This document shows positions 10,068-53,981 of a stretch of 64,000 nucleotides of DNA, one piece after another. Source of the DNA: Deltaproteobacteria bacterium (GTDB lineage: Bacteria; Desulfobacterota; Binatia; HRBIN30; CADEER01); assembly GCA_033764095.1 (NCBI GenBank), contig JANRJF010000458.1, positions 4,814 through 68,813 of the forward strand. Reading direction: 5' to 3'. The translations under genes and the position numbers were made by a program. Numbering within the stretch: position 1 is the first letter of the stretch; each line of letters begins with the position of its first letter. The notes below the pieces were generated by a model. The model made no database searches, was not told the DNA's origin, and saw only the letters and a list, made by a program, of their open reading frames with translations.

Positions 10068-10069
10068 CC

Positions 10070-10255: not shown

Positions 10256-11135
10256 CGTGCTGAGCTGGTGGGTCATCCTGCTCACGCTGTCGAACATCTT
10301 CGCCTGCTTCGGCCTGCTGCTGTGGGCGCGCAGCAAGCGCGTCGCCGGCGCCGCGCACGAGACGCTCGGTCACGCGTACGACGGCATCCAGGAGCTCGAC
10401 ACGCCGCTGCCGCGCTGGTGGCTGTGGATCTTCATCGGCACCATCGTCTTCTCACTCGTCTACCTGGCGCTGTACCCGGGCCTGGGCAACTTCCCCGGCG
10501 TGCTCGGCTGGACCTCGTCCGGCCAGCTGCATCAGGAGATGGCGCGCGCCGACGCCGAGTACGGCCCGCTCTACGCCGCCTACGCCGCCAAGCCGATCCC
10601 CGAGCTGGTCCACGATGCCAAGGCGCTGCAGATGGGCCAGCGCCTGTTCGCCAACAACTGCGCGCAGTGCCACGGCTCCGACGCGCGCGGCGGCGTCGGC
10701 TTCCCCAACCTCACCGACAACGACTGGATCTGGGGCGGCGACCCCGACACCATCAAGACGACGATCCTCGCCGGCCGCAACGGCGTCATGCCGCCGTTCG
10801 CCCCCGCCATCGGCGGCGACGAAGGCATCCCGCTGGTCGTCGCCTACGTGCAGAGCCTGAGCGGCATGCAGGTGGACGCCGACAAGGCGGCCGCCGGCAA
10901 GGTCAAGTTCAACACCATCTGCATGGCCTGCCACGGTCTGGACGGGAAGGGGAACCAGACGCTGGGCGCGCCCAACCTCACCGACGACGTCTGGCTCTTC
11001 GGCAACGACGAGGCGAGCATCGCCGAGGGCCTGCGCAAGGGCCGCAACAGCAAGATGCCGGCGCACGCCGACATTCTCGGCGAGCAGAAGGCGCACGTCG
11101 TCGCCGCCTACGTCTACAGCCTGTCGCACCGGTGA
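10248..11135 (+). CDS. ccoP: cbb3 oxidase subunit III, diheme cytochrome c (CcoP)
   Basis: Two CxxCH motifs (CAQCH, CMACH). N-terminal TM helix. GGGAGGAG RBS. Confidence 0.92.
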   Translation: MSDVLSWWVILLTLSNIFACFGLLLWARSKRVAGAAHETLGHAYDGIQELDTPLPRWWLWIFIGTIVFSLVYLALYPGLGNFPGVLGWTSSGQLHQEMARADAEYGPLYAAYAAKPIPELVHDAKALQMGQRLFANNCAQCHGSDARGGVGFPNLTDNDWIWGGDPDTIKTTILAGRNGVMPPFAPAIGGDEGIPLVVAYVQSLSGMQVDADKAAAGKVKFNTICMACHGLDGKGNQTLGAPNLTDDVWLFGNDEASIAEGLRKGRNSKMPAHADILGEQKAHVVAAYVYSLSHR

Positions 11136-15822: not shown

Positions 15823-16553
15823 CGCCGCCGCTCGACGCCGTCAGCCTGCTCGGCGGCCTCGGCCTCGGCGCGCTGGGCAGCGCCCACTGCGTCGCCATGT
15901 GCGGCGGCATCGCAGGTGCGCTCGCCCTGGCGCCGGGGGCCACCGGCGCCGCCGCGGCGGTCGCTCGCCAGACCGCCTACAACGTCGGACGGATCACCAG
16001 CTACGCCGTCGCCGGCGCGCTCGCCGGCGCCCTCGGCGTCGCCCTCGCCGGGCTCTTCGGCGGCACCGGCATCGCCCTGCTGCGCGCGCTCGCCGCGCTG
16101 TTGCTGCTGGCGCTCGGCCTCTATCTCTCCGGCTGGTGGTCCGGCCTCGTCCGCCTCGAGCGCTTGGGCGCGCGCCTCTGGCGGCGTATCGCGCCGCTCG
16201 CCGCGCGCCTGCGGCCAGGCCGTTCCATCGGCGGCGCCCTGGCGCTCGGTATGCTGTGGGGCTGGCTGCCGTGCGGGCTCGTCTACAGTGCCCTGGCGCT
16301 GGCGGCGACCGCCGGTGACTGGCGCCACGGCGCGCTGCTGATGGCCGGTTTCGGCCTCGGCACCCTGCCGGCGATGCTCGCCACCGGTCTCGTCGCCGGT
16401 CGTGTCGGCGGCCTCGCACGCCGCGCCGCCCCGCGTCGCGTCGCCGGGATCCTGCTGATCGGCTTCGGCCTGTGGACGTTTGCCGCCAGCGGCGCCGTCG
16501 CCCATCTCCGCGGCGCCGCGCCGGCCCCCTGCCACGACCACGGCGCGCCCTGA
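15819..16553 (+). CDS. TauE/SafE-like membrane protein with HCxxMCGG motif, closing the cco cluster
   Basis: SAHCVAMCGG motif. 6-7 TM helices. GTGA overlap with ccoS. Strong GGGGAGGAGAGG RBS. Confidence 0.75.
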   Translation: MTPPLDAVSLLGGLGLGALGSAHCVAMCGGIAGALALAPGATGAAAAVARQTAYNVGRITSYAVAGALAGALGVALAGLFGGTGIALLRALAALLLLALGLYLSGWWSGLVRLERLGARLWRRIAPLAARLRPGRSIGGALALGMLWGWLPCGLVYSALALAATAGDWRHGALLMAGFGLGTLPAMLATGLVAGRVGGLARRAAPRRVAGILLIGFGLWTFAASGAVAHLRGAAPAPCHDHGAP

Positions 16554-16664
16554 GCGCCGCGCGGCCGGGACACACCACCGCCGCGGCGCCTTTGCCGTTC
16601 GCGGGTCCGCGGTGACGGTCACCGGCGACGGACGGATCGGCGCATGCCCTGGCGTCCGCGCCGG

Positions 16665-17030
16665 TCAATCGTCGCGTGACTCGTCGGCACGCGTCGGCGT
16701 GCGCGTCGCGCGCGGCGTCGGTGTGCGAGTCGGCGCGGCGGTCGGCGTGCGGGTCAGCGTCGGCCGCCGCGTCGGCGTCGGCGTGCGCGTCGCGGTTGGC
16801 CGCCGCGTCGGCGTGCGGGTCGGCAGGCGCGTCGAGGTGGCGGTGGCGCGCCGCGTTGCCGTCGGCGTCACCCGCGCCGTGACCGTCGGCGTGCGTGAGC
16901 GCAGCGTCGCGGTAGGCGTGCCCGGTCGCGCGCTGGCCGTCGGCGTCGCCCGCGTCGGCGTCCTGGTGACCGCGAGGGTCGGGGTGGGGCTGGCTGATGG
17001 CGTCGCGCTCGCCGCGCGCGGCGTGCCGCC
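16665..17030 (-). repeat. Degenerate tandem DNA repeat (GTCGGCGTGCGxGTCG-like units) encoding the TPTR/PT-rich C-terminal tail of the multiheme cytochrome
   Basis: Visible periodicity of gtcggcgtgcgcgtcgc units in 16680-16960. Confidence 0.6.
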
Positions 17031-28320: not shown

Positions 28321-30510
28321 TCAGCGCGGCACCCGCAGCAGCAGTGGATCGAGCACGCCGCTGCGCACGTTGGCGTGATCGTCGATGCTGGTGTGGACCA
28401 GCCCGCCGCCCCACGACTGGTTGTTCACGTTCACGTCGACCTCGGCGCCGCCGGTGGTGATCGAGTTGCCCTTAATCAGGAAGTCGCCGCGCTGGTAGTA
28501 GTTGACGTGGTAGGCGCTGCCGAGCGGCCGCCGCCGTTCCGAGTCGAGGTCGATGTCGGAGTCGTTCTCGATGCCGTCGATGTAGGCGGAGTACGGCATG
28601 GTGAAGGTGCCGATGCTGGCGCGGTTGATGTCGAGGCGCTCGGACAGGTCGTAGGTCGAGCCGCCGCCGTGGCTGTAGCCGAAGATCGAGACGATGCCGA
28701 TGCCGCGCTGCTGCACGGCGCGCACCACCTCGTCGTAAGCCGCGCCGGCGCCGCTGCTGCTGACATTGTCCTCGTCGTACATGTGGACGTCGTAGCCTTG
28801 CGTGTAGAGCGTCTTGGCGATGTTGAACACGCCGTGGTTCGAGTCCGGCGGGTCGCTCGGGCCCTGCCCCTCGCCGCCGAGCGCGATGATGACGCTGGTG
28901 AACGGGTAGAAGTGGATGGTGTCGTTGGCCAGTGTCGCACCGCCGCCGGCCGGACGCGCGCGCAGCTCGAGATCGGCGGCACCGCCGTTGGGGCTCTCGA
29001 TCCACACCGTGCGCGTGCCGCTGCCGTCGAAGGTCAGCACCTGCTCGGTGCCGGTGGTGAGGATCGCGGTCCCCTTCCCGTCGGCGCTCCAGACCTTGAT
29101 GTTGGCATTGCCGCGCACCAGCACGTACTCGAAGCCGAGCGGCGCGGTGGCCGGGCTGACCGCCAGCGTCACCTCGATCAGGTCGTTCTCGCCGCCGACC
29201 GTGCCGGTGTCGTCGCGGTCCACCGTGCCGTTGCCGTTGTCGTCATCGCCGTTGGCGCGGATCCCGGCGCCCGGGCTCTCCTCGCTGCCGTCGGGGACGG
29301 CGAGACGCTGGAACGGCGAGCCGTAGCTCTCCGAGCGCTGGCGATAGGCGGTCATCTGGATGCTGAACGACGGCGGCGTCGCCGTTGCGGTCGGCGTCGG
29401 CGTGGTCGTCTGCGTGGCGGTGAGGGTAGGAGTCGCCGTCAGCGTCGCGGTGTGCGTCGCCGTGTCGGCGGCGGTGGCGGTCGCGGTCGGCGTTTCGGTC
29501 GGTGTGTCCGTCGGCGTGGCGGTGGCGGTTGGGATCGCCGTCTCGGTGTCGGTCGCGGTGGGACTGGGGAGCGGCGTGTCGGTGTCGGTCGGGGTGCTGC
29601 TGGCCGTCGGGGTGGCGGTCGGTGTCGCGCTCGCCGTCGCACTGGGGGTCGCGGTCGGCGTGTCCGGCGCGGTCGGCAGCGGCGTGTGCGTCGGCGACGG
29701 CGTCGGGGTCGGCGTCGGGGTCGGCGGTGCGGGGTTGTAGACCGCGTCGAAGAGGACGTCGGCGGCGAGGTCGGCTGCGGCCGCGACGCATGCCTGCTCG
29801 CCAGCGACCTCGGCGGCGCAGCTGTCGAGCGCGGCGAGCCCGGACGCATCGCACGCCGCGATGGCCGTCTGCGCGCGCGCCAGGGCGGCGGCGACCTTGT
29901 CCAGCTGGTCGGCGGTCTGGCAGTCGACGCCGATCGGCGCGCGATCCTCGCCGAGCTGGCATTTCTGCTGATCCTTCACCCGCGCGATCAGGTAGCGGCG
30001 CAGCGCGTTGCCAATGTCGCGCTGGCAGCGCGCCGCCTCGGTGCTCGCCGGCAGCGCCGGCGCGCCGAGGATCTCGCTCAGCGCGGTGCCGGTGTGGGCC
30101 TCGGCCAGGCAGGCCATGCACTCGGCCACGCCGGCGTAGTCGTTGATGACGACGCTGCCGCACGGCGTCGGGCAGACCAGATAGCCGTTGTCGGACGGGA
30201 CGCTGTCGCGGCAGCCGCGCTGCGTCAGGCGAGCCAGGATGTCGCGCGCGTGCGCGACCTTCGCGCCGAGCCCGCTCGGGTCGTTGCAGTCCGCGGCCGG
30301 CGTGCCCGCCAGGCGCGCGTCGTGGCACTTGAGGCTGGCCTTGAGGATCGCGTCGGAGAGTCGCCGCACACCGCCGCCGATGCTCTTGCGGCACTTGATG
30401 CTCTCCTTGGAGAGCGCGTTCGCCGGCAGTGGAGCGGCGAGTACAGACGACGCCGCGACCAGTACCAACACCGCGCGGCTCAGCCGCCCCCAGGTCGACC
30501 TTGCGCTCAC
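28321..30510 (-). CDS. Secreted multidomain protein: Cys-rich N-terminal domain, PT-rich linker, and a C-terminal alpha/beta-hydrolase-like domain with a GYSHG nucleophile elbow (putative lipase/esterase)
   Basis: Signal peptide STWGRLSRAVLVLVAASSVLAAPLPANA. IFGYSHGGGSTYDL GxSxG motif. The start is ambiguous (TTG 30558 or GTG 30510). Confidence 0.6.
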   Translation of the reverse strand: MSARSTWGRLSRAVLVLVAASSVLAAPLPANALSKESIKCRKSIGGGVRRLSDAILKASLKCHDARLAGTPAADCNDPSGLGAKVAHARDILARLTQRGCRDSVPSDNGYLVCPTPCGSVVINDYAGVAECMACLAEAHTGTALSEILGAPALPASTEAARCQRDIGNALRRYLIARVKDQQKCQLGEDRAPIGVDCQTADQLDKVAAALARAQTAIAACDASGLAALDSCAAEVAGEQACVAAAADLAADVLFDAVYNPAPPTPTPTPTPSPTHTPLPTAPDTPTATPSATASATPTATPTASSTPTDTDTPLPSPTATDTETAIPTATATPTDTPTETPTATATAADTATHTATLTATPTLTATQTTTPTPTATATPPSFSIQMTAYRQRSESYGSPFQRLAVPDGSEESPGAGIRANGDDDNGNGTVDRDDTGTVGGENDLIEVTLAVSPATAPLGFEYVLVRGNANIKVWSADGKGTAILTTGTEQVLTFDGSGTRTVWIESPNGGAADLELRARPAGGGATLANDTIHFYPFTSVIIALGGEGQGPSDPPDSNHGVFNIAKTLYTQGYDVHMYDEDNVSSSGAGAAYDEVVRAVQQRGIGIVSIFGYSHGGGSTYDLSERLDINRASIGTFTMPYSAYIDGIENDSDIDLDSERRRPLGSAYHVNYYQRGDFLIKGNSITTGGAEVDVNVNNQSWGGGLVHTSIDDHANVRSGVLDPLLLRVPR
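29371..29733 (-). repeat. Low-complexity DNA encoding the Pro/Thr (TPTATPT...) linker of the secreted hydrolase
   Basis: The protein segment PAPPTPTPTPTPSPTHTPLPT...ATATPPS maps here. The DNA is GTCGGCGT-rich. Confidence 0.6.
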
Positions 30511-35678: not shown

Positions 35679-35824
35679 GGCAGGGACCCGGTCGGGCGAT
35701 GCGACCGTCGAAGCCGGCGACCGGGCGTATGATCGCCCGACCGCGCTGGTCGTCGGCAGGATGATTCAGGTACGCGCGGACTCCTCCGACCGCGACGAGT
35801 CAGCGGATGGCGCTGCAGCGCGGC

Positions 35825-35980
35825 TCAGCTGTCGCCGCGGTCCTGCTGCTCGGTGATCGTGGGCCTGCGCTCAGCGTAGGGCTGGCCCGAATCCTCCGGC
35901 ACGATGCTCGAAGCCTTCGTCGCCTTCGGGAGCGACGGGACATACGTCGCTTTGCCGCTGTCGTTGATCCTGAAGAGCAT
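35825..35980 (-). CDS. Micro-ORF (51 aa, hydrophilic, Ser/Lys/Pro-rich: MLFRINDSGKATYVPSLPKATKASSIVPEDSGQPYAERRPTITEQQDRGDS) translationally coupled to the upstream metallophosphoesterase gene
   Basis: The ATG is 3 nt after the upstream TGA (TGACGGATG). A GGAGAGG RBS is embedded in the upstream gene's 3' end. GC3 is ~88%, matching genome coding bias. Below the 60-aa track cutoff. Confidence 0.45.
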   Translation of the reverse strand: MLFRINDSGKATYVPSLPKATKASSIVPEDSGQPYAERRPTITEQQDRGDS

Positions 35981-35983
35981 CCG

Positions 35984-38134
35984 TCACACCTCTCCGGGCG
36001 CTGTGCTTAGCATAGCTAGCACGGCTTGAGAAAGCATGTTTCGTATCCTTTCACCCTGGTTCGGATGAAGCAAAGCGGTTGTCGAGTCGGTCTGACTCTT
36101 GATGCCGATACGTAGCACGGCCCAGGGTGCGCCACTGATCCAGCTGAGTCCGAACCGGACGGGGACTGCCAGAAGCGCGGTTTCTCCAGGCAGGTAACCG
36201 AGCTCGAGATCGGCCGTCGAGTTGCCCTGGCGAGAGATGGAGACCGCTCCGTACCACGCCTGAGCCAGCATCGTACTGGTGTCGCGCAGCGTTACCTCCG
36301 GGGCGGGACGGTCGGTGCTCGGCGTCCCATCGGCGTCGAGAAAAGCGACCATGCCGAGGGTGTGTTGCCCGCTCGGGAGGTAGAGCGCGAAGGTCGCGTT
36401 GTGCAGCGGGCTAGCGGACAGCGCTTGGCGGAACGTGCCCAGGAGTTCGATACCGCGCTGACGCGCCACGGCCTGGAAGCGGGCGGCCTCGGGTGAGGCG
36501 TGTCCGGGCGGCGGCTTCCACACGATGGCATATCGGAAGCCCTTCCACGGATACGGGATCGTCACCGCGAACGAACTGTCGGTGAGTCTCTGCAGTCGAT
36601 GCGAGATCTCCGGTCGTTCTTCGGGCTGGCTGCCGGATTGGGCGACGTCCTGGACCAATACGCGGACGCTGTTGGGATCGGGGGCGAACTCGGGCGGCAG
36701 CCGAATCGCGAGCGTGAGAGCGGCGAACGATCCGCGCGGCAAGAGGCCCATGTATTCCAGCCCCTGGCGGCGAAACGGCCCGGCGCGAGAAAGATCGAGC
36801 GACGACATCTCCTCTTGGGTGAGGATCCCGCCTCCCAGCCAGCGGTACCAGAACTCGATCCGCTGGGGTTCAGCGGCGACGTCGTCCGGAACTTCACAGG
36901 CGAACCGCCAGGAGAAGTCGTCGTTGGGGGCCCGCTCGAACTTCAGATCGCCGGGCGGAGACCATCGGGAGCCGTGGCGGTTGGTGAATGTCACGCGCAG
37001 GTCCACCGGCACGCCGGTGGCGTTCTTGACCTCCAACGCCCACTTGTTGTTGTTGATCTTCCAATCGCTGCGGGTGCCGTGGACGAGCGCATCGCGTTCG
37101 CGCGTCACCTCCAGGTACATCATGACCTGGCTCGACGCCGGCCGGTCGAGATCCTTGCCGAACTGCCGCTGGAAGCGCGAGCGGCGCAGCTCATCCGCGT
37201 CGAGAAGGCCGATGCTCCGCGACTGCCACTTGGTGCCGTCGCGCGTCAGCACCTGCAAGATCACCTCACGCCGAGGTGTGAGGCGAAAGACGTTGAACGA
37301 CATATCCTGGGCGAGACACCCGCGCAGGGTCTCGTGTCCGGTGGCTGATCCTGCGCCAACCACCACGGACTGCCCGCCGCCCCCCTGCAGGGAGCCATAG
37401 CGTGCCCAGTTGGCGGCGTGCTCGTGTCCATGCAGGAGCAGGTCGATATGCGCCGAGGTCACGGTTTCGAGCAGCGACCCCGCGTTCACCAACGTCGTCA
37501 GGTTGAAGAGATCCTTGGTGCGGTTCTGCCTGGCCTCCTCGAGCGAACGAACCGGGAGCGGGTGATGGTGCGCGAGAAGGATGCCGAGATCGACCGCGTC
37601 CGCATCCTTCATCGCATGCTGCAGCGCTTCGCGGGTCGCGAGATCGACGAATCCGCGCGCCGCCGCGTCTGCCCGGGCCGACGTGTCGATACCCAGGATG
37701 CGCACGCGCCATCGGTTGCGGCCCTGGATCAGCTCGCGCTCGGTAAACGGGGCTTTCGACGCAGGTATCTGGTCCCGGAACTGGGCGTCGAACCACGCCG
37801 ACACGCGCGTCGGGCCCGCCCACCGCGCCCGCGCCGCCTCGAGCCAGCCGACCGACGCGATCGAGTTCCCGACTTGGTGCCGGTCATGGTTCCCCGGGCA
37901 GACGAAGAAGGGAATGTCGAGCCCGTCGAGCTCGTTCCATGCCTGTTTGTAGGCGGCCTGCGACGGTGAATCGACGATGTCGCCGGTCGCCAGTACCAGG
38001 TCGAAGTGCTCGTCCTTCAGGTAGCGCTTGAGTGATTTCCAGGTCTCGTCCTGGTGCGCGACGCCGAAATGGAGGTCGCTGATGTGGGCGATCAGCACGT
38101 CTTCACGCGGGGCGGTCGGGTTGGCCATGTTCAT
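35984..38134 (-). CDS. Calcineurin-like metallophosphoesterase (N-terminal ~290 aa: GDIVD, GNHD, GHEH motifs) fused to a ~430-aa C-terminal domain with no recognisable motifs
   Basis: MPE motifs I-V are visible (DLHFG, GDIVD, GNHD, GHEH). The C-terminal portion is beta-rich and W/K/N/F-containing with no motif I can name. Local GC is ~63-65% versus ~72% around it. Confidence 0.75.
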   Translation of the reverse strand: MNMANPTAPREDVLIAHISDLHFGVAHQDETWKSLKRYLKDEHFDLVLATGDIVDSPSQAAYKQAWNELDGLDIPFFVCPGNHDRHQVGNSIASVGWLEAARARWAGPTRVSAWFDAQFRDQIPASKAPFTERELIQGRNRWRVRILGIDTSARADAAARGFVDLATREALQHAMKDADAVDLGILLAHHHPLPVRSLEEARQNRTKDLFNLTTLVNAGSLLETVTSAHIDLLLHGHEHAANWARYGSLQGGGGQSVVVGAGSATGHETLRGCLAQDMSFNVFRLTPRREVILQVLTRDGTKWQSRSIGLLDADELRRSRFQRQFGKDLDRPASSQVMMYLEVTRERDALVHGTRSDWKINNNKWALEVKNATGVPVDLRVTFTNRHGSRWSPPGDLKFERAPNDDFSWRFACEVPDDVAAEPQRIEFWYRWLGGGILTQEEMSSLDLSRAGPFRRQGLEYMGLLPRGSFAALTLAIRLPPEFAPDPNSVRVLVQDVAQSGSQPEERPEISHRLQRLTDSSFAVTIPYPWKGFRYAIVWKPPPGHASPEAARFQAVARQRGIELLGTFRQALSASPLHNATFALYLPSGQHTLGMVAFLDADGTPSTDRPAPEVTLRDTSTMLAQAWYGAVSISRQGNSTADLELGYLPGETALLAVPVRFGLSWISGAPWAVLRIGIKSQTDSTTALLHPNQGERIRNMLSQAVLAMLSTAPGEV

Positions 38135-38318
38135 TCAGCGTCGTTGCACGCAGGGCTTCCGATGGAGCGCGAGCACGCCTACCCTAGGGAATGGCCGGCG
38201 TCGTGAACAACTCGGGAATTTCCCGTACATCGCGATGAGCCGGAGGCGGCGCGCGTCCCTCGACCGCGGGGACCGGAGGTGCTGGACTGCCAGGGTATCG
38301 CCGGCATAGCGTCGCGCG

Positions 38319-39110: not shown

Positions 39111-40108
39111 TCGGCCGGCGTCGCGGCGCCGCCGTGCGGGAGTGCCGTCGCGGTCAGCTCGACCGAGCGCAGGCGCGCCTCCAGCGTCGGCGACGGGTGG
39201 ACGGTGATGAGCTCGTCGGCGTCGGCGTGGCGGGCGAACTTGGCGAGGTAGTCGCGCACCTCGGCCGCCGTGCCGACCGCCGAGTAGCGCGCCATGGACT
39301 GCAGGTGCCGCCCCTCCGGCGATTCGAGCAGCCCATCCACGTCGGCGTCGGTCAGCGCGCGCCCGCGGCCGAGCAGGGCGCGCACGCGGGCGCGGCGCAC
39401 GCTGGCGAACTGCGCCGCCGCGTCGGCCGCGTCATCCGCCGCGACGACGTTGACGCCGGCGATCACGTAGGGGTGGGCGAGCTGGGCGGACGGTTTGAAC
39501 GTCCGGCGGTAGAGGGCGACCGCCTCCTCCAGCGCGCCGGGCGCGAAGTTGGACGCGAAGGCAAACGGCAGTCCGAGCGTCGCGGCGAGCTGCGCGCCGA
39601 ACAGCGACGAGCCGAGCATGTAGAGCGGCACGTGCGCGCCCTTGCCGGGAATGGCGATGACCCCGGGGAACGGCGGTTCGTCGCCGAGGAACGCCTGCAG
39701 CTCGACGACGTCCTGTGGGAACGAATCGGCGGCGTGTGGCGTGCGGCGCAAGGCGCGCAGCGTGGTCTGGTCGGTGCCGGGCGCGCGCCCGAGCGCCAGG
39801 TCGATGCGGCCCGGGTGCAGGCTCTCGAGGGTGCCGAACTGCTCGGCGATCTGCAGCGGGGTGTGGTTGGGCAGCATGATGCCGCCCGCCCCGATGCGGA
39901 TACGGGTGGTCTGTGCGGCGATGTGCGCGATCACCACGCTGGTCGCCGACGAGGCGATGCTGGGGATGTTGTGGTGCTCGGCGTACCAGACGCGCGTGTA
40001 GCCGAGCCGCTCGGCCAGCTGGGCCAGTGCGACGCTGCCGGCGAAGGCATCGCCCGCCGTCTGGCCCGGACCGACGAACGCGAGGTCGAGAATCGACAGC
40101 GACACCAT
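39107..40108 (-). CDS. LLM-class (luciferase-like) flavin-dependent oxidoreductase
   Basis: TIM-barrel LLM sequence ([15 protein letters not shown]... WYAEHHN). Internal start at 40108. Confidence 0.75.
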
Positions 40109-40154
40109 GCGTTCGCATAGCACCGCTGCTGCCGCCGGCAAGCCGGCCCGGTAC

Positions 40155-40634
40155 TCAGCCCGCCGCGGCGCGCTCGATGGCGGCGATGTCGATGCGCTTC
40201 ATCTGCATCATCGCTTCCATCGTGCGCCTGGCGCGGGCGGTGTCGGGATCGGCCATCAACTCGATCAGGCGACGCGGCGCGATCTGCCAGGAGAGGCCGA
40301 ACTTGTCTTTCACCCAGCCGCACTGCTCGGCTTCCGGCACGGCGGACAGCGCATCGGTGAGGCGGTCGTTCTCTTCCTGGCTGTCGGTGAAGATCTGGAA
40401 GCTCACCGCCTCGGTGAACTTGAAATGTGGGCCGCCGTTCAGGCCGACGAAATGGATGCCGGCGATGGTGAACTCGACCGTCAGCACGTCGCCCGCCTTG
40501 CCGTTGGGATAGGCGGACGGGGCGCGATGGACGGCATCGACGTGGGCGTCGGGTAGCACCGCGGCGTAGAAGTGCGCGGCCTCCTCGGCGTTGCCGTCGA
40601 ACCAGAGGCAGGGGCTCAACTTGTGGCTGAACAT
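40155..40634 (-). CDS. VOC/glyoxalase-superfamily protein (PhnB-like)
   Basis: PhnB/VOC-like sequence starting [23 protein letters not shown]. Confidence 0.7.
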
Positions 40635-40653
40635 GACGCTCGGATCTCCTTCG

Positions 40654-41406
40654 TCACTTGCGCGGGCCGACCATGGCGAACATCGTGCCGTGCGGGTCGC
40701 TGGCCTGGATGATCCAGCGATCGCCCGGCACCTCGGCCGGGCCGTGCAGGACCTGGCCGCGCTGCTCGGTCAGCCGCCGATGCGCGGCGTCGATGTCGTC
40801 GACGTTGAAGTAGAACAGCCATGACGGCGCGACGTTCGGGCTGTTGAACATGGCGCCGATCGGCTCGCCGTTGAAGCCGACGAGCTGGTAGGTGCCCATC
40901 GGCCCCATGTCCATCGCCTGGATCTTCTCCCAGCCGAACAGGCGCGAGTAGAACGCGAAGGCGCGTTCCCAGTCGCTGGTGTGCAGCTCGTTCCAGCCGA
41001 TGTGACCGGGCGCGTTGGCCTTGAAGGCTTCGGGCGGGGCGTGATCGGGCACCGAGCCGCGCAGCAGCATGAAGCGCACGCCCTGCGGGTCGGCGACGAC
41101 CGCGAAGCGGCCGACGCCGGGGATGTCGTCCGGCGCCCGCACGACGGCGCCGCCGGCCTCGCGGATCTGGGCGGCGGTGCGGTCGACGTCGTCGACGCCG
41201 ACATAGCCGCTCCAGCCAGGCCGCGCCCAGGCTTCCGGCGGCGGCGTGCCGATGCCGCCCACCTGGCCGTCCGGCGCCCCGAGCACGGTGTAGTCCATGC
41301 CGCCGCCGTGGCCCTGCATGCCCCAGCCGACGACCGCCTTGTAGAACGCCTCGGCGGCCGGCTTGTCGGCGGCGGCCAGCTCGTACCAGATGAATCCGTT
41401 CGCCAT
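40654..41406 (-). CDS. Two-domain VOC (glyoxalase/bleomycin-resistance/dioxygenase) family protein
   Basis: Tandem VOC modules. Internal start MANGFIWYEL at 41406. Confidence 0.7.
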   Translation of the reverse strand: MANGFIWYELAAADKPAAEAFYKAVVGWGMQGHGGGMDYTVLGAPDGQVGGIGTPPPEAWARPGWSGYVGVDDVDRTAAQIREAGGAVVRAPDDIPGVGRFAVVADPQGVRFMLLRGSVPDHAPPEAFKANAPGHIGWNELHTSDWERAFAFYSRLFGWEKIQAMDMGPMGTYQLVGFNGEPIGAMFNSPNVAPSWLFYFNVDDIDAAHRRLTEQRGQVLHGPAEVPGDRWIIQASDPHGTMFAMVGPRK

Positions 41407-48969: not shown

Positions 48970-51954
48970 TTGAGCCTGCTCGGCTTCATTGCCTTCATCC
49001 TCGCGCTGATCGCCTGGCGCCGTACGCGCCGCCGCGACGATCTCGCCGAACGGGTCGAGCGTCTGGAGCGCGAGCTCGCGACGCTGCGCGAGCAGCTGAG
49101 CGCGGCCGGCGTCGCTGCGCCGGCGGTCGCCGCACCGCTGGTCGTAGCGAGCGCTACCGCGACGCCGCTGGCGGTGGACGCGCCGGAACTGCTCGCCGAG
49201 GCCGAGCCGGCCGCCGCCGCGGCGGACGACGCGGCGCGGCCGACCCTGGAGGATCTGCTCGCCCCCGCCGCCGCGCCGCCGCCCGCGGCGCCCGCCGCGC
49301 CGGCGGCGTGGCAGAGCATCGACTGGGAGCGGCTCTTCGGCGTGCGCGCCGCCGCGGTGCTGGGCGGCATCGCCCTGGCGCTCGCCGGCCTGCTGTTCTT
49401 CAAGTACTCGATCGAGCACGGCCTGATCCCGCCGTGGCTGCGCGTCGTGCTCGGCACCCTGGTCGGCATCGGCTGCATCGGTGGCGGCGAGTGGACCTTG
49501 CGCCGGCGTTACGCGGTGACCGCCGACGCGCTCGCCGGCGGCGGCCTGGTGATCCTCTACGCCGCCTTCTGGGCGGCGAGCGTGCGCTACGACCTGGTGC
49601 CGATCGGCGTCGGCTTCGGGCTGATGATCGCGGTCACCGCCACCGGCTGCGCGCTGGCGGCGCGCCACCGGGCGCTGGTGACGGCGCTGATCGGCCTGAT
49701 CGGCGGCTTCGCGACGCCGCTGCTGCTCTCGACCGGCAGCGATCGCCCGCTCGGCCTGTTCGGCTACGTACTGCTGCTCGACACGGCGCTGCTGGTGCTG
49801 GCGCAGCGCGGCCGCTGGCCGTGGCTGGCGGCGCTGAGCTTCGCCGCGACGCTCTTCTACCAGGCACTGTGGATCGGCACCCGCATGGGGCCCGACCGGC
49901 TGGCGCTCGGGCTCGTCATTCTCGGCGTGTTTGCGCTGCTGTTCGCGGTCGCCAGTCGACTGGCGCCCACCGAGCAGCGACGCGGCTGGTGGTGGACGGC
50001 GGCGGCCGCGGTGCTGGCGCCGTTCGCGTTCGCGCTCTACTTCGCCGTCGACGCCGACTTCGGCCCGTCGCTCAATCCGGTCGCGGCGCTGCTGGTGTTG
50101 CTCTCGTTCGCCGCCGCCTGGCTGGCGCGCGAACAGGATCAGCCGGGCCTCGCGGTCGGCGCTGCCGCCGCCAGCCTCGGCGTCTTCGCCGTGTGGGTGG
50201 CGGTCCGCGTCGACGGCGACGGCATCCAGCCGTGGCAACTGACCCTCTGGTGCGTGGCGCTCGCGGCGGCGTTTCACCTCTTCGTCGAGCTGGAGGGGAC
50301 CGAAGACATACCGCCTGGCAGCCCTTCGCCGCAGGCGGGCGGAGCCGATGTGCGCGGCCCGATGCCGGCCGCCGTGCTCGCCGCCGGCGGCGGCTTCGTG
50401 CTCACCATCGCCGCGTCGCAGGCGGCGCAGAGCCTGGCGCCGTGGCTGGTCGGTTGGACGCTGCTGGCGGCGCTGCTGATCCGCCACGCCGGCCGGCCCG
50501 GCCGCGCGCCGTTGCACCTGGTCGCGGCGCTCGGGGTCGGTTTCGCGCTCTGCGTGCTGCGCAACGCGCACGACGGCGAGGCGTGGTTTCCGTCGCTGAC
50601 GGTGTACCTGCCGCTGACCATTCTCGCCGCCGGCGCCTTCCAGGCGGTGGCGCTGACCCGCGTCGAGGCCGCGGCGCAGCGCTTCGCCGAACATGCCGCG
50701 GCGCTGCTGCCGGTCGTCCTGCTGCTCTACCTCGAGGGCGATCCGCAGGCCCCGGCGGTGCCCTTCCTGCTCGGCACGCTGATCCTCGGCCTGCTCGCCG
50801 CCTTTGCCGGCACCCGCCTCGGCCTCGGTGTCTGGCTGTGCGTCGCGGTGGCGGTCACCGCGCTGGCGCACGACACCTGGAGCCGCGCGCTGCTGCTCGG
50901 CGACGATCCCGCCGCGCTCGCCGGGCGCGCGCTGCTTCTGCAAGCGGTGGCGGTGCTCGCGTTCACCGCCTGGCCCTTCCTGGTCGCCCGTCGCTACCCC
51001 CTCGACCGCCTCGCCTGGCCGGCCGCGGCACTGGCGGCACCGGCCTGGTTCCTGTCGCTGCGCCGGCTGTTCGAGCTGTGCTTCGGCGACGGCGCGATCG
51101 GGGCGCTGCCGGTGGCACTCGGCGTCGTGGCCGTGCTGGCGCTGCGCCAGGCGCGCGCGCTCGGCCCGCGCGAGGAGCCGCTGCGCACCGAGGTGCTCGC
51201 CTGGTTCGGCGCCGTCGCGCTCAGCTTCGTCACCCTCGCCAGCCCGCTGCAGCTGGCGCGCGAGTGGATCACCATCGGCTGGGCGCTCGAAGGCGTCGCC
51301 GTGCTGTGGCTCTGGCGGCGTCTCGATCACCCCGGCCTCAAGTACTTCGGCCTCGCGCTGCTGCTCGCCGTCGCCGTGCGCCTGATCGCCAACCCGGCGG
51401 TGCTCGACTACTACCCGCGCCCCGCCTGGCGCGTCGTCAACTGGCTCCTCTACACCTACCTCGTCCCGGCGGCGGCGCTGCTCGGCGCCAGCAGCATCCT
51501 CGCCGAGCTGGAGCTTCCGCGGCTGCGCGACTGGGAGCGCGTCGGCTACGCGCGCGGCCGCGCCTGGGGCGCGATCGCCACCGGCCTCGGCGGGTTGGCG
51601 GTGATCTTCGTCTGGATCAACCTCGCCATCGCCGACTGGTTCAGCGCCGGCCCGAGCCTGGTGGTGAGCTTCGAGCGCCTGCCGGCGCGCGACCTCACCA
51701 CCTCGATCGCCTGGGCGGTCTACGCGCTCGTGCTGTTGGTGTTGGGTGTACTGCGCCGCAGCATCGGCCTGCGCTGGGCGAGTCTCGGCCTGCTGCTGGT
51801 CACCATCGCCAAGGTCTTCCTGCACGACCTCGGCGAGCTGCGCGATCTGTATCGCGTCGCCTCGCTGCTCGGCCTCGCCATCTCGCTGATCCTGGTGTCG
51901 CTCGCCTATCAGCGCTTCGTCTTCGGCCCCGACGAGGCGGAGCAGCGCTCGTGA
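48970..51954 (+). CDS. DUF2339-family large polytopic membrane protein (N-terminal TM helix, coiled-coil RVERLERELATLREQL, Ala/Pro-rich linker, then >25 TM helices)
   Basis: Architecture read from the translation. TTG start as given by the track. Divergent from flotillin. Confidence 0.7.
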   Translation: MSLLGFIAFILALIAWRRTRRRDDLAERVERLERELATLREQLSAAGVAAPAVAAPLVVASATATPLAVDAPELLAEAEPAAAAADDAARPTLEDLLAPAAAPPPAAPAAPAAWQSIDWERLFGVRAAAVLGGIALALAGLLFFKYSIEHGLIPPWLRVVLGTLVGIGCIGGGEWTLRRRYAVTADALAGGGLVILYAAFWAASVRYDLVPIGVGFGLMIAVTATGCALAARHRALVTALIGLIGGFATPLLLSTGSDRPLGLFGYVLLLDTALLVLAQRGRWPWLAALSFAATLFYQALWIGTRMGPDRLALGLVILGVFALLFAVASRLAPTEQRRGWWWTAAAAVLAPFAFALYFAVDADFGPSLNPVAALLVLLSFAAAWLAREQDQPGLAVGAAAASLGVFAVWVAVRVDGDGIQPWQLTLWCVALAAAFHLFVELEGTEDIPPGSPSPQAGGADVRGPMPAAVLAAGGGFVLTIAASQAAQSLAPWLVGWTLLAALLIRHAGRPGRAPLHLVAALGVGFALCVLRNAHDGEAWFPSLTVYLPLTILAAGAFQAVALTRVEAAAQRFAEHAAALLPVVLLLYLEGDPQAPAVPFLLGTLILGLLAAFAGTRLGLGVWLCVAVAVTALAHDTWSRALLLGDDPAALAGRALLLQAVAVLAFTAWPFLVARRYPLDRLAWPAAALAAPAWFLSLRRLFELCFGDGAIGALPVALGVVAVLALRQARALGPREEPLRTEVLAWFGAVALSFVTLASPLQLAREWITIGWALEGVAVLWLWRRLDHPGLKYFGLALLLAVAVRLIANPAVLDYYPRPAWRVVNWLLYTYLVPAAALLGASSILAELELPRLRDWERVGYARGRAWGAIATGLGGLAVIFVWINLAIADWFSAGPSLVVSFERLPARDLTTSIAWAVYALVLLVLGVLRRSIGLRWASLGLLLVTIAKVFLHDLGELRDLYRVASLLGLAISLILVSLAYQRFVFGPDEAEQRS

Positions 51955-53981
51955 TCCGCACGCTGTTCACCTGTGTGCTGCTGGTCGCCGGCGTGGCGCA
52001 CGCCGACGTCCCCGACCTGCGCCGGTTGTTTCCCTTCGAGCGGACGGTCGACGTGGCGCAGCCGGGCGTGGTGCGCCTCGCGCTGCCCGCCGAGGTCCTG
52101 CGCGCGACCCGGCCCGACCTGTCCGACGTGCGGCTGTTCGACGCCGACGGCCGCGAGGTGCCCTTCCTGATCGACACCGGCGAGCCGCGCGGCGAGCGCG
52201 TCGAACGCCGCCTCGAGCCGACCGTGCTCGATGCGCGCCGCGAGCAGATCGAGCGCGCCGATGCCCCGCCGCTCTACCGCGAGACCTATGTCCTCGCCGC
52301 GCCACCCGACGACGCGCCGGCCTGGGAGTTGCTGTTCGACGTCGAGCAGGCGGAGTTTCTGCGCCGCCTGACCGTCGAGGCGGTCGACGCCGACGGCAGC
52401 CGCCGACCGCTGCTGAAGGACGACGCCATCTTCCGCCTGCGCAAGCCGCTGTCGGCGAAGCTGCGCGTCGCGCTGCCGCTGCGCGGCGCGGCGCCGTGGC
52501 CGAGCCGCATTGCGGTGACGCTGGAGGGCGAGGACGGCCAGTACCTGCGCCCGCGACTCGCGCTGCAGAGCACCCGCGACCTGGCGGCGAACCCGCCGGT
52601 CGCGGTCGAGCTCGAGCCGATCAGCGTCGAGACGCGCGACGGGCGCTCGGTCATCGAGCTGGCCCGCCCCGGCGGTCTGGTGCCGGATGCGCTGCGCCTC
52701 GACAGCCGCACGGCGGCGTTCTCGCGCGACGTCACCGTCTGGGATGAGCAGCCGGGGCAGCCGGCGACGCAGATCGGAGCCGCAACACTGGTGCGGCTGC
52801 GCGGCGCCACCGGCGAGCGCGAGCGCGAGGTGGCGCTGCGCGCCGCCCGCGGCGACCGCCTGCGCCTGGAGATCACCGACGGCGACAGTCCGGCGCTGGT
52901 CAATCCGCGCGTCATCGCGCTGGTGCGCCAGCCGGTCCTGGTGTTCGCCGCCGACGCCAGCGGCGCCTTCACGCTGCGCTATGGCGGCGGCCGCGCCCAC
53001 GCACCGCGCTACGACCTGGCGGCGCTGCGCCCGCGGCCCAATACGCCGCTCGACGCGGCGCGCGCCGCGCTGGTCGCGCCGGCCGACCCGCCTGCCGCGC
53101 CGGCGACGCTCGGGCCGCAGGGTGACAATCCGGCCTACGATGGCGCCCCGGCGCTGGGGTTCGCGCTGCGCCCGGGCGCCGCGCTGGATGCGCGCGCATG
53201 GGCGCTGCGGCGCCGCCTGGCGGTGCCGCAATCGCCCGACGGGCTGACCCGCCTGCGCCTGGCACCGGAGGACGCGGCCGCGGCACGCCCCGATCTCGCC
53301 GATCTGCGGATCGTCGACGCGCAGGGGCAGCAATGGCCGTACCTGCTGCAGCGCGACGCCGGGCGCTTCTGGCAGGAGCTCGAGGTCGATCGACCGCGGC
53401 GCGACGGGCGCCGCTCGACGGTGGCCCTGCGCCTGCCGGTCGCGCCGCTGACCATCGACCAGCTGGCGCTGGAGAGCGACGCGACGTTCGTCGACCGTCC
53501 GTTCCGCCTGCGCGGCAAGGCGCCGGACGAGACCGAGGTCGTGCTCGCCGACGGCCGCCTGACGCTGCGCGCCGAACGCCCGCAACCGCTCACCATCGCC
53601 TTTGCGCCGCAGCGGCTGAGCGAGCTGACGCTGGAGATCGACGACGGTGACGAGGCGCCGCTCGCCTGGCGCGCGGCGCGGGCGCGCAGCGTCGCGGCGG
53701 AGCTCTTCCTGGTCGCCCCGGCCGGCGCGTACTCGCTGCTGGTCGGCGCCGCCGACGCCGAGCCGCCGACCTACGACATCGAGCGGGTGCGCGACGTCGT
53801 CTTCGCCGTGCGCGGCGGCACTGCCGCGGTGGGCGCGCTGGAGGCGAACCCGGTGCACACGCTCGGCATCAGCGCGCGCGGGGGCTGGGCGACGCTGCTG
53901 CCGCGCCTGCTGCTCTGGGCGGCGCTGATCGCCGCCGTGCTGGTGCTCGGCGTGGTGACCCTGCGCACCGTGCGGCGCTGA
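51951..53981 (+). CDS. DUF3999-family protein (signal peptide, large periplasmic beta-rich region, C-terminal TM anchor), translationally coupled (GTGA) to the DUF2339 gene
   Basis: Signal peptide IRTLFTCVLLVAGVAHA. C-terminal WATLLPRLLLWAALIAAVLVLGVV TM helix. DUF2339/DUF3999 co-occurrence is a known conserved pairing. Confidence 0.65.
   Translation: MIRTLFTCVLLVAGVAHADVPDLRRLFPFERTVDVAQPGVVRLALPAEVLRATRPDLSDVRLFDADGREVPFLIDTGEPRGERVERRLEPTVLDARREQIERADAPPLYRETYVLAAPPDDAPAWELLFDVEQAEFLRRLTVEAVDADGSRRPLLKDDAIFRLRKPLSAKLRVALPLRGAAPWPSRIAVTLEGEDGQYLRPRLALQSTRDLAANPPVAVELEPISVETRDGRSVIELARPGGLVPDALRLDSRTAAFSRDVTVWDEQPGQPATQIGAATLVRLRGATGEREREVALRAARGDRLRLEITDGDSPALVNPRVIALVRQPVLVFAADASGAFTLRYGGGRAHAPRYDLAALRPRPNTPLDAARAALVAPADPPAAPATLGPQGDNPAYDGAPALGFALRPGAALDARAWALRRRLAVPQSPDGLTRLRLAPEDAAAARPDLADLRIVDAQGQQWPYLLQRDAGRFWQELEVDRPRRDGRRSTVALRLPVAPLTIDQLALESDATFVDRPFRLRGKAPDETEVVLADGRLTLRAERPQPLTIAFAPQRLSELTLEIDDGDEAPLAWRAARARSVAAELFLVAPAGAYSLLVGAADAEPPTYDIERVRDVVFAVRGGTAAVGALEANPVHTLGISARGGWATLLPRLLLWAALIAAVLVLGVVTLRTVRR

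What the first reader, a model, noticed from the sequence alone, without database searches (positions are those of the whole stretch)
35825..38134. Metallophosphoesterase fused to a large unknown domain, with a tightly coupled 51-aa micro-ORF, in a lower-GC pocket
The 716-aa protein has a complete calcineurin-like phosphoesterase core (DLHFG, GDIVD, GNHD, GHEH) in its first ~290 aa. The following ~430-aa beta-rich extension has no motif I can assign to any family. Three nucleotides after its stop, a 51-aa hydrophilic ORF starts, with an SD (GGAGAGG) embedded in the upstream coding sequence and ~88% GC3, so it looks translated and coupled. The two-gene unit is ~8% lower in GC than its flanks and sits between unrelated housekeeping oxidoreductases, as an acquired module would. 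MPE effectors fused to unknown sensor-like domains plus a tiny partner are reminiscent of stress or defence modules, but this precise architecture is not one I can name.
Basis: partly seen in the sequence, partly recalled or inferred. Interest (0 to 1): 0.7.

Follow-up and report, generated by a model that had tools for sequence, protein, structure and literature searches.

The report
Phosphoesterase-sensor gene with conserved micro-protein
A rare, apparently imported two-gene cassette pairs a phosphoesterase (of the type known from anti-phage immunity, fused to a GAF-like sensor region) with a tiny, translationally coupled partner gene, and it is probably an uncharacterised bacterial defence module.

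Summary
A 716-aa ORF (35984-38134, minus strand) carries a complete metallophosphoesterase (MPE) core. A 51-aa ORF (35825-35980) starts 3 nt after its stop, 8 nt downstream of GGAGAGG. The pair is the lowest-GC 2.3 kb of the window.

The "unknown" C-terminus has no Pfam match. It models confidently (pLDDT 92) as a linker helix, two Ig-like beta-sandwiches and a GAF-like domain.

The micro-ORF is real. All 14 distinct homologue loci carry a same-strand small ORF at the MPE stop, against a 32% background. A profile built without the window peptide recovers it at E=5e-6.

The family is rare: 253 clusters among 1.84 billion representatives. The C-terminal module is always attached to this MPE. The MPE's best curated match is DS-9A, the anti-phage "Calcineurin-CE" phosphoesterase, but far below that model's cut-off.

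Rare variants add TIR or caspase domains, the caspase ones with an EACC1-like upstream gene. Several loci lie beside toxin-antitoxin, OLD-nuclease, integrase or helicase genes. No PADLOC or NCBIfam system model matches.

Best reading (about 0.55): a horizontally acquired conflict or defence module, with a nucleotide-targeting MPE effector, an Ig-Ig-GAF sensor and a stoichiometric micro-protein regulator. It would be a new variant of a known kind. It is untested experimentally.

The parts
35984..38134 (-). Gene for the 716-aa MPE / Ig-Ig / GAF-like protein (large subunit)
   Evidence: ORF. 100% identical to an NCBI MAG protein annotated 'metallophosphoesterase'. About 57 full-length homologues at 28-40% identity. 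AF2 model pLDDT 89.6, pTM 0.87.
37235..38098 (-). Metallophosphoesterase catalytic domain (residues ~13-300), Calcineurin-CE-like
   Evidence: Pfam Metallophos E=1.5e-14. Best NCBIfam match is NF053862 DS9_1_antiphage, 61.6 bits over the whole domain, profile positions 192-477. Catalytic residues are invariant. Nearest solved folds are Lmo2642, Rv0805 and GpdQ, then YydB, then Mre11/SbcD.
37151..37198 (-). Arg-rich linker helix (residues 313-328; R317 nearly invariant, R323 invariant)
   Evidence: DSSP on the models. Conservation.
36836..37129 (-). First Ig-like beta-sandwich (residues ~336-433)
36515..36817 (-). Second beta-sandwich (residues ~440-540; invariant E460, P480, P529, Y535, W539)
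36002..36493 (-). Long helix plus GAF-like alpha/beta domain (residues ~548-711)
35989..35995 (-). Shine-Dalgarno-like GGAGAGG inside the 3' end of the large gene, 8 nt upstream of the micro-ORF ATG
   Evidence: Sequence. SD-like purine runs recur at the equivalent junction in homologue loci.
35825..35980 (-). 51-aa micro-protein gene (MLFRINDSGKATYVPSLPKATKASSIVPEDSGQPYAERRPTITEQQDRGDS), translationally coupled
   Evidence: 3-nt gap. GC3 0.885 in this frame against 0.59-0.67 for the overlapping alternative ORFs. Positional counterpart in 14/14 loci. Leave-one-out profile hit E=5.4e-6. The L081/L089 pair shows 21 synonymous-only against 14 non-synonymous codon differences. Motif G-x-P-[FYWLMI] in 9/13 against 4.1% background.
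35689..35743 (.). Inverted repeat (12-bp perfect arms, 31-nt loop) between the convergent SDR gene and the micro-ORF; possible shared terminator (weak)
   Evidence: The fold is -34.8 kcal/mol but z = -0.98 against shuffles, so it is not statistically distinctive in this GC-rich DNA.

Best explanation
The two genes form a self-contained, horizontally acquired conflict (anti-phage or abortive-infection type) module.

Large protein. It combines a catalytically intact metallophosphoesterase of the 'Calcineurin-CE' type with a C-terminal regulatory and sensor region. This is the MPE clade that acts as the nucleotide-targeting effector in Metis/PUA-Cal-HAD (DS-9) and DS-8. The regulatory region consists of a linker helix, two Ig-like sandwiches and a GAF-like domain.

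Small protein. The mostly disordered micro-protein is made in fixed ratio by translational coupling. It binds the large protein as a regulatory subunit, through its N-terminal hydrophobic strand and its G-x-P-aromatic motif.

Proposed sequence of events (inferred). In the resting state the enzyme is held off. An infection-associated cue releases it, probably through higher-order assembly. The cue would be either a ligand in the GAF-like pocket or loss or displacement of the micro-protein. The MPE then hydrolyses an essential nucleotide pool (NAD+, dNDP/dNTP or a related phosphodiester), arresting the cell or the invader.

Shown here: the anatomy, fold assignments, catalytic-residue conservation, obligate MPE-module linkage, micro-ORF conservation, compositional foreignness, and effector accretion in variants.

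Inferred: defence function, substrate, trigger, oligomerisation, and the micro-protein's role.
For: (a) MPE clade. DS9_1_antiphage (NF053862) is the top NCBIfam hit and covers the whole MPE domain. It scores 61.6 bits for the window protein and 55-73 bits for every relative tested. DS8_antiphage is second or third. CpdA, SbcD and LpxG models match only short motif stretches. DS-9A and DS-8 need their MPE catalytic residues for phage defence (PMC13092281). PUA-Cal/MisA cleaves NAD+ or dNDP.

(b) Catalytic residues are invariant in 49 homologues.

(c) The C-terminus is a GAF-like sensor fold.

(d) The family is rare: 253 clusters at E<=1e-3 among 1.84e9 representatives. It is phyletically patchy (a Deltaproteobacteria-labelled MAG, Binataceae, Comamonadaceae, Pseudomonas soli, Nitrosospira lacus). 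Every locus has a different context.

(e) The unit has the lowest GC and a depressed GC3 in the window.

(f) Variants add classic immune effectors N-terminally. P0095 has TIR_2. P0121 has caspase C14, and P0140 a weak caspase hit. The caspase-type variants have an EACC1-like gene immediately upstream. EACC1-caspase pairs are protease-activated pore effectors normally fused to sensors.

(g) Sister proteins P0060-62 keep the same MPE (39-41% identity) with an unrelated C-terminus. This is effector/sensor shuffling.

(h) Neighbours in homologue loci:
- integrase, Phage_GPA and an OLD/GajA-like nuclease (L086)
- CapP-like peptidase, DUF2442 and ParE (L088)
- a DrmD/BrxH-like helicase, an ankyrin protein and a UvrD_C protein (L090)
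- DUF4365 and PrlF/YhaV (L084)
- BrnT/BrnA (L089)
- TPR-S-patatin (P0095 locus)
.

(i) The micro-ORF is present in 14/14 loci. Thirteen start -28 to +17 nt from the stop. The background rate is 31.6%. Sequence homology is shown, and purifying selection.
Against: - There is no experimental evidence for any member.
- In the window, and in several homologue loci (L081, L083, L091), the neighbours are ordinary metabolic genes, with no integrase or defence gene nearby.
- I did not compute a formal defence-island enrichment. Only about 6 of 14 loci show suggestive neighbours.
- No PADLOC model matches beyond a 24-bit N-terminal motif hit. The DS-9A score is far below its 420-bit cut-off.
- The nearest solved folds of the MPE domain are housekeeping-type class III phosphodiesterases: Rv0805, GpdQ and Lmo2642.
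- GAF similarity is structural only.
- No member was found on 72,556 plasmids, 50,697 phage genomes or IMG/VR contigs, so the route of mobility is unknown.
- Half of the positional small ORFs are not detectably homologous to the window peptide by HMM.
- The G-x-P motif was defined post hoc.
- The micro-protein's binding and role are entirely inferred, because no multimer prediction could be run.
Confidence: 0.55

Rival explanations
1. Physiological signalling enzyme. On this reading it is a GAF-regulated class III (cyclic) nucleotide or glycerophospho-diesterase used in ordinary second-messenger or phosphate metabolism. The small ORF would be an accessory or chaperone-like subunit. The low GC would simply reflect an old transfer.
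Against: - The CpdA model (NF008359) matches only residues 40-85, at 34.8 bits against a cut-off of 225. The anti-phage DS-9A model covers the whole domain.
- The family is extremely rare and patchy, with no conserved neighbourhood.
- TIR and caspase/EACC1 fusions are not expected for a housekeeping phosphodiesterase.
- GC3 is depressed relative to the host genes.
Confidence: 0.2
2. Selfish toxin-antitoxin-like addiction module without an immune role. The MPE would be a toxic nuclease or nucleotide hydrolase. The micro-protein would be its proteic antitoxin, and the cassette would persist by post-segregational killing.
For: The architecture is a tightly coupled two-gene unit with a small, fast-evolving, largely disordered partner. 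It co-locates with other toxin-antitoxin pairs in L084, L088 and L089. Mre11/SbcD nucleases are secondary structural matches.
Against: The small gene is downstream and translationally coupled, giving stoichiometric rather than excess antitoxin. No DNA-binding domain is present for autoregulation. No members are found on plasmids. The elaborate Ig-Ig-GAF region and the added TIR/caspase effectors imply signal sensing rather than simple addiction. Toxin-antitoxin and defence roles are also not mutually exclusive.
Confidence: 0.15
3. The micro-ORF is a chance open frame in GC-rich DNA and only the large gene is functional.
For: About 32% of control genes in these loci have a 50-95-aa same-strand ORF at their 3' end by chance. 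Half of the positional ORFs lack HMM-detectable similarity. There is no Pfam match.
Against: - 14/14 loci carry it, which is about 1e-7 by chance when computed from the rate.
- The leave-one-out profile hit is E=5.4e-6, with the next background hit at 0.055.
- Close pairs show a synonymous-biased substitution pattern.
- GC3 is 0.885 in this frame only.
- An SD sits at the correct spacing.
- The motif is enriched.
- Independent gene callers annotate it.
Confidence: 0.03

Closest known systems
Metis type I / PUA-Cal-HAD / DefensePredictor DS-9 (MisA/DS-9A: PUA-like sensor + Calcineurin-CE MPE; MisB/DS-9B: HAD phosphatase)
   Same: The MPE domain is the closest curated relative: NF053862 is the top hit over the entire catalytic domain for every family member tested. 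Both are two-gene units in which a sensor domain is fused to the MPE and a second, co-translated partner follows. In the known system the effector logic is nucleotide-pool attack (NAD+ or dNDP hydrolysis) after ligand sensing, with filament or oligomer activation.
   Different: Domain order is reversed here: the MPE is N-terminal and the sensor C-terminal. There is no PUA-like domain, and the sensor is Ig-Ig-GAF-like. The partner is a 51-90-aa non-enzymatic micro-protein, not a HAD phosphatase. The score is 61.6 bits against a 420-bit cut-off. Substrate and trigger are unknown.
DS-8 (MPE + NACHT single-protein anti-phage system)
   Same: Related MPE: NF053861 is the second- or third-best NCBIfam hit. 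The N-terminal MPE effector is followed by a large regulatory region. Catalytic residues are required for defence.
   Different: No NACHT or P-loop NTPase is present here. The match covers the N-terminal motifs only, at 22 bits against a 790-bit cut-off.
Class III cyclic-nucleotide / glycerophospho-diesterases (Rv0805, CpdA, GpdQ, Lmo2642)
   Same: These are the best solved-structure matches to the MPE domain, at Foldseek E 1e-13 to 1e-11. They share the same dimetal motif set.
   Different: Sequence similarity is marginal: PDB phmmer E ~0.06, and the CpdA model scores 34.8 against 225 bits. These enzymes lack the Ig-Ig-GAF region and the micro-protein.
GAF-regulated phosphodiesterases (e.g. 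mammalian PDE2/5/6) and peptide-binding GAF-like domains (plant MYC3-JAZ)
   Different: The catalytic fold is unrelated (HD-type in PDE2/5/6). No sequence-level GAF signature is present. Ligand or peptide binding here is untested.
EACC1-caspase protease-effector defence modules
   Same: The variants P0121 and P0130 carry an EACC1-like 115-117-aa gene directly upstream. P0121 also has an N-terminal caspase-like domain, and P0130 has an unassigned N-terminal extension of about 290 aa. Known EACC1-caspase pairs are fused to sensors.
   Different: The window copy has neither EACC1 nor a caspase domain. The EACC1 hits are weak (15.6 bits against a 23.6-bit cut-off).
Type II toxin-antitoxin pairs
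   Same: A compact two-gene unit with a small, rapidly diverging proteic partner, often found beside other toxin-antitoxin loci.
   Different: The small gene is downstream and coupled. It has no DNA-binding fold. Toxicity and neutralisation are untested.

Membership tests
Calcineurin-like metallophosphoesterase superfamily (Pfam PF00149) | Score above the gathering threshold, and the five metal-binding motifs DxH / GD / GNH(D/E) / H / GHxH | tested here: met
   55.3 bits against a 21.5-bit cut-off. DLH (D20, H22), GD (D52), GNHD (N82-D84), HHH (189-191) and GHEH (H237, H239) are invariant in 49 homologues.
DS-9A / MisA anti-phage phosphoesterase (NCBIfam NF053862, equivalog) | Whole-protein score of at least 420 bits | tested here: not met
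   61.6 bits. Only profile positions 192-477, the MPE part, are matched.
DS-9A / MisA anti-phage phosphoesterase (Metis, PUA-Cal-HAD) | N-terminal PUA-like modified-nucleotide sensor domain | tested here: not met
   The MPE starts at residue ~13. No PUA hit in Pfam or NCBIfam. The sensor region is C-terminal and Ig-Ig-GAF-like.
DS-9 / Metis two-gene system | Adjacent HAD phosphatase partner (MisB / DS-9B) | tested here: not met
   The downstream gene is a 51-aa peptide without any Pfam, NCBIfam or PADLOC match. The flanking genes are SDR and PhyH.
Calcineurin-CE clade (Nicastro et al. 2023, as cited in bioRxiv 10.64898/2026.01.15.699771) | MPE domain closer to conflict-system MPEs than to housekeeping MPE families | tested here: met
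   DS9_1 is the top NCBIfam hit, with full-domain coverage, for the window protein, P0017, P0042, P0095 and sister proteins P0060/62/63/65. CpdA, SbcD, LpxG and YaeI models give only partial, weaker matches. The defining paper itself could not be read, so clade-specific signature residues were not checked.
DS-8 (NCBIfam NF053861) | Score of at least 790 bits, and a NACHT NTPase domain | tested here: not met
   22.1 bits over residues 17-85 only. No P-loop or NACHT in Pfam or in the fold search.
Any system in PADLOC-DB v2.0.0 | Significant full-length match to a system protein model | tested here: not met
   Only PDC-S60 (24 bits, residues 15-87) and a CBASS endonuclease effector (12.6 bits) match. 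The micro-protein has no hit.
GAF domain | GAF fold: antiparallel sheet flanked by N- and C-terminal helices | tested here: met
GAF domain | Sequence-level membership (Pfam GAF, GAF_2, GAF_3) | tested here: not met
   No GAF family at E<=1 in any of 16 C-terminal sequences.
GAF domain | Small-molecule or peptide binding in the pocket | not testable with these tools
   No ligand docking or multimer prediction is available.
Class III cNMP phosphodiesterase CpdA (NF008359) | Score of at least 225 bits | tested here: not met
   34.8 bits, residues 40-85 only.
Mre11/SbcD nuclease (TIGR00619) | Score of at least 77.65 bits, a capping domain, and an SbcC/Rad50 partner | tested here: not met
   25.6 bits. 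No ATPase partner in the window. Structural matches are weaker than those to the phosphodiesterases.
5'-nucleotidase (MPE + 5_nucleotid_C) | C-terminal 5'-nucleotidase substrate-binding domain | tested here: not met
Type II toxin-antitoxin system | Toxicity of the large protein, neutralised by direct binding of the small one | not testable with these tools
   This requires expression and interaction experiments.

The most novel reading that the evidence does not exclude
This would be a previously unrecognised anti-phage or abortive-infection system. A fast-evolving micro-protein carries a short linear motif: an N-terminal beta-strand plus G-x-P-aromatic. It would act as a guard, decoy or latch on an Ig-Ig-GAF-like sensor. 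Release of the latch would drive oligomerisation and switch on whichever effector sits N-terminally. That effector is a Calcineurin-CE phosphoesterase in the minimal form. Elaborated forms add TIR or caspase/EACC1. The Ig-Ig-GAF plus micro-protein pair would then be a new, portable sensor cassette for bacterial immunity.
Probability: 0.3. Interest if true: 0.75.

Novelty: new variant of a known kind. Interest (0 to 1): 0.6.

Why it matters
Metallophosphoesterase effectors have only recently been validated in anti-phage immunity (DS-8, DS-9/Metis/PUA-Cal-HAD), and so far with PUA or NACHT sensors. This cassette would add a third, structurally distinct sensor solution: Ig-Ig-GAF-like plus an obligate micro-protein.

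It would also add to the few cases in which a sub-100-aa, gene-caller-fragile peptide is an integral part of a conflict system. Gene callers missed the micro-ORF in several of the loci examined.

The fusions with TIR and with EACC1-caspase give a ready-made genetic argument for how the sensor works.

The family is small, has a cultured carrier (Pseudomonas soli) and has a clear catalytic-dead control, so it is directly testable.

Tried and rejected
(1) The genome-contig scan with the full-length alignment was swamped by generic MPE motifs. Only L001 and L002 were usable family loci, with L049 and L059 as more distant relatives.

(2) Scans with the 16-sequence C-terminal alignment failed for lack of a conserved 7-10-residue stretch. 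A 5-sequence alignment gave only 3 metagenome loci, one of them useful, and no viral loci.

(3) The afdb50 fold library was unavailable, so I could not look for the C-terminal module in UniProt-wide models.

(4) tblastn of the C-terminal region against plasmids and phages found nothing. BFVD gave only generic MPE-domain matches.

(5) The HMM of the clear micro-protein subgroup does not reach the divergent positional ORFs of L083, L084, L087, L002 and L098. Their relatedness therefore rests on position and on a post-hoc motif.

(6) The intergenic hairpin at 35689-35743 is not energetically distinctive. No sigma-70-like promoter or intrinsic terminator is associated with the unit, and no flanking direct repeats mark an insertion.

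(7) The paper defining Calcineurin-CE (Nicastro et al. 2023) is not in the library. I cannot say whether this exact architecture is already listed there.

(8) A 5'-nucleotidase-type C-domain, a NACHT domain, a PUA domain and transmembrane partners were considered and excluded.
Full report
**Observation.** The window holds a 716-aa ORF at 35984..38134 and a 51-aa ORF at 35825..35980, both on the minus strand. The junction reads GGAGAGG-tg-TGA-cgg-ATG. That gives a 3-nt gap and an SD-like heptamer 8 nt before the ATG. Pfam places a calcineurin-like phosphoesterase at residues 15-240 (E=1.5e-14). Nothing significant from Pfam, NCBIfam or PADLOC covers residues ~310-716 or the 51-aa peptide.

The pair has 65.6% GC. 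The five immediately flanking genes have 70.6-73.4%. Only 0.24% of 2.3-kb stretches in the window are as low, and all of them overlap this unit. GC3 is 0.815 for the large gene and 0.885 for the micro-ORF, against 0.93-0.95 for those flanking genes. The flanks are a molybdopterin oxidoreductase, a DSBA-like protein, an SDR, a PhyH dioxygenase, a luciferase-like monooxygenase and glyoxalase-type proteins. Every factual element of the finding is therefore confirmed. The '8%' GC difference is better stated as 5-8 points.

**The large protein.** The window is from an NCBI MAG labelled Deltaproteobacteria, where the protein is annotated 'metallophosphoesterase'. About 57 full-length homologues at 28-40% identity exist. 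They include copies in Pseudomonas soli, Nitrosospira lacus, a Binataceae MAG and a Comamonadaceae genome. In a 49-sequence alignment all dimetal-site residues are invariant: D20, H22, D52, N82, H83, H189-191, H237 and H239. So are family-specific positions such as E199 and N217, and C-terminal residues R323, W432, E460, Y535 and W539.

No Pfam GAF model is hit by sequence in any of 16 members, so the assignment is structural only.

Foldseek of the full model against the PDB puts the MPE domain nearest Lmo2642, Rv0805 and GpdQ, then YydB, then Mre11/SbcD.

By profile, the best curated match is NF053862, 'DS9_1 anti-phage phosphoesterase'. It scores 61.6 bits and covers the entire MPE part of that model. 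The same model is the top hit for every family member and sister protein tested, at 55-73 bits, with DS-8 second or third. The CpdA, SbcD, LpxG and YaeI models match only short motif stretches.

DS-8 and DS-9 are validated anti-phage systems whose MPE catalytic residues are essential (PMC13092281). DS-9 shares the architecture of Metis / PUA-Cal-HAD. In that system a 'Calcineurin-CE' MPE is fused to a PUA sensor. It hydrolyses NAD+ or dNDPs after sensing m6dAMP, and in one study it acts as a filament. The window protein is well below the DS-9A cut-off of 420 bits. It lacks both the PUA domain and the HAD partner. It therefore works with a related effector domain but is not a member of that system.

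**Family structure.** A profile of the C-terminal region alone was searched against 1.84 billion representative proteins. It finds only 253 clusters at E<=1e-3, of which 138 are below 1e-30. Of 134 proteins that cover more than 300 profile positions, 123 have the family MPE upstream. The other 11 are N-terminally truncated fragments. The module is thus obligately tied to this MPE.

Four longer variants carry extra N-terminal domains:
- P0095 has a TIR_2 domain (E=3e-22) that resembles the TIRs of ThsB and SAVED-TIR effector proteins.
- P0121 has a caspase C14 domain.
- P0140 has a weak caspase hit.
- P0130 has an unassigned extension of about 290 aa.

P0121 and P0130 also have a 115-117-aa EACC1-like gene immediately upstream. 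The hits are weak: 15.6 bits here, and a precomputed 'weak' hit. EACC1-caspase pairs are protease-activated pore-forming effectors that are normally fused to sensors (bioRxiv 10.1101/2025.11.14.688446).

Conversely, sister proteins P0060-62 keep a 39-41% identical MPE, including the family-specific HHHLL..R.LE and TTLVNAGS stretches. Their ~190-aa C-terminus is unrelated and unannotated.

This pattern of a constant effector with swapped sensors, plus accretion of TIR and caspase, is the combinatorial signature of conflict systems.

**The micro-ORF.** In all 14 distinct loci for which downstream DNA was available, a same-strand ORF of 51-90 aa sits at the MPE stop. The loci are the window, L081, L083, L084, L086, L087, L088, L089, L090, L091, L093, L098, L001 and L002. 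In 13 of them the ORF starts between -28 and +17 nt of the stop, often as ATGA overlaps. In L086 it starts at +70. Gene callers had missed it in several loci.

Among 692 control genes in the same DNA, 31.6% have such an ORF by chance. Fourteen of fourteen therefore corresponds to about 1e-7.

A profile built from four other small ORFs, leaving the window out, recovers the window peptide at E=5.4e-6 among 23,853 ORF pieces. The next background hit is at 0.055.

A database search adds three more close relatives and shows that NCBI annotates the window peptide as a hypothetical protein.

L081 and L089 differ at 21 codons synonymously and at 14 non-synonymously. The changes concentrate in the tail, which indicates purifying selection on the first ~48 residues.

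The shared features are:
- An N-terminal hydrophobic strand: MLFRINDSGK in the window, MLVLINHSGK in L093, MLVIFENNGK in L098 and FILYRITS in L081.
- A Pro-rich middle.
- A G-x-P-[FYWLMI] motif, present in 9 of 13 against 4.1% of background ORFs. The motif was defined after seeing the data.

I take that as fast evolution of a largely disordered partner, but it remains an assumption.

**Context and mobility.** Neighbourhoods differ at every locus. Some are defence-, toxin-antitoxin- or mobile-element-like:
- L086 has an integrase, Phage_GPA and an OLD/GajA-like ATPase-nuclease.
- L088 has a CapP-like peptidase, DUF2442 and ParE.
- L090 has a DrmD/BrxH-like SNF2 helicase, an ankyrin protein and a UvrD_C protein.
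- L084 has DUF4365 and PrlF/YhaV.
- L089 has BrnT/BrnA.
- The P0095 locus has a TPR-S-patatin gene.

Others, including the window, are purely metabolic. No member was found on plasmids, in phage genomes or in IMG/VR contigs. Viral structure hits are generic MPEs. Around the window copy there are no insertion repeats, promoter-like or terminator-like sites of note.

**Interpretation.** The best-supported explanation (about 0.55) is a compact, horizontally acquired conflict module in three parts:
- A Calcineurin-CE-like MPE effector that attacks a nucleotide pool.
- An Ig-Ig-GAF-like region that senses a cue.
- A stoichiometrically co-translated micro-protein that regulates the complex.

TIR NADases, caspases and the PUA-Cal MPE are all activated by proximity or oligomerisation. 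The same C-terminal module sits behind each of these in this family. I therefore infer that the module works by trigger-dependent assembly. This step is an inference, not a result.

The main rival (0.2) is a physiological GAF-regulated phosphodiesterase. It is favoured by the structural neighbours and the metabolic flanks. It is disfavoured by the rarity and patchiness of the family, by the DS-9A affinity and by the immune-domain fusions. A pure addiction toxin-antitoxin module (0.15) and a spurious micro-ORF (0.03) are less likely.

**Novelty.** No PADLOC-DB v2 or NCBIfam (2026) system model captures the unit. Literature searches found no description of an MPE-GAF-micro-protein system. The paper that defined Calcineurin-CE could not be read, so prior listing of this architecture cannot be excluded. 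I rate it a new variant of a known kind: an MPE-effector conflict system with a new sensor and a new partner. It is of moderate-to-good interest, and it is unproven without experiments.

Noticed in passing
L093:1051-1404 (+) and L098:1277-1624 (+): A 115-117-aa EACC1-like gene lies 8-16 nt upstream of the variants of this family that carry an N-terminal extension: P0121 (caspase C14) and P0130 (unassigned extension). The Pfam EACC1 hit is 15.6 bits against a 23.6-bit cut-off, plus a precomputed weak hit. These loci also keep the downstream micro-ORF. This would place MPE-Ig-Ig-GAF in the 'sensor slot' of an EACC1-caspase pore module.
   Followed up: partly
L087:3302-6004 (+): A 900-aa ORF with no Pfam or PADLOC match overlaps the start of the MPE gene by 4 nt in one homologue locus (a 4.3-Mb contig). 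It may be a third component in that lineage.
   Followed up: partly
Proteins P0060, P0061, P0062; P0062 is on a 1.1-Mb contig: These sister proteins of ~475 aa share a 39-41% identical MPE domain, and DS9_1 is also their best NCBIfam hit. Their ~190-aa C-terminus is unrelated and unannotated. The same effector appears to be attached to a different putative sensor.
   Followed up: partly
Protein P0159 (1088 aa): This family member has two MPE domains. The extra N-terminal one matches PADLOC candidate PDC-S60 (68.7 bits) and a CBASS-type endonuclease effector model.
   Followed up: no
L086:3031-4253 and 8223-10722: The Nitrosospira-type copy lies between a split integrase (Arm-DNA-bind_3 and Phage_integrase called as two genes), a Phage_GPA fragment and a 673-aa OLD/GajA-like ATPase-nuclease. 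This looks like a P4-like defence hotspot.
   Followed up: partly
window 38221-38244: A palindrome centred on ATCGCGAT lies in the 184-bp divergent intergenic region between the MPE gene and the PhyH gene. It is a possible operator site.
   Followed up: no
window 35689-35743: A 12-bp perfect inverted repeat with a 31-nt loop lies between the convergent SDR gene and the micro-ORF. It folds at -34.8 kcal/mol but is not better than shuffles (z = -0.98).
   Followed up: yes
window 16001-17000, 29001-30000 and 50001-52000: These 1-kb bins have unusually strong negative AT skew (-0.49, -0.35, and -0.36 to -0.40). The bin at 16-17 kb also has the highest GC in the window, 0.788. They are unrelated to this finding.
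   Followed up: no
window 1001-2000, 8001-9000 and 40001-41000: Other 1-kb bins with GC of 0.66-0.68. They are shorter dips than the MPE unit. The 40-41 kb dip coincides with the 3-dmu-9_3-mt (PhnB-like) gene, which has GC 0.662 but a normal GC3 of 0.906.
   Followed up: partly
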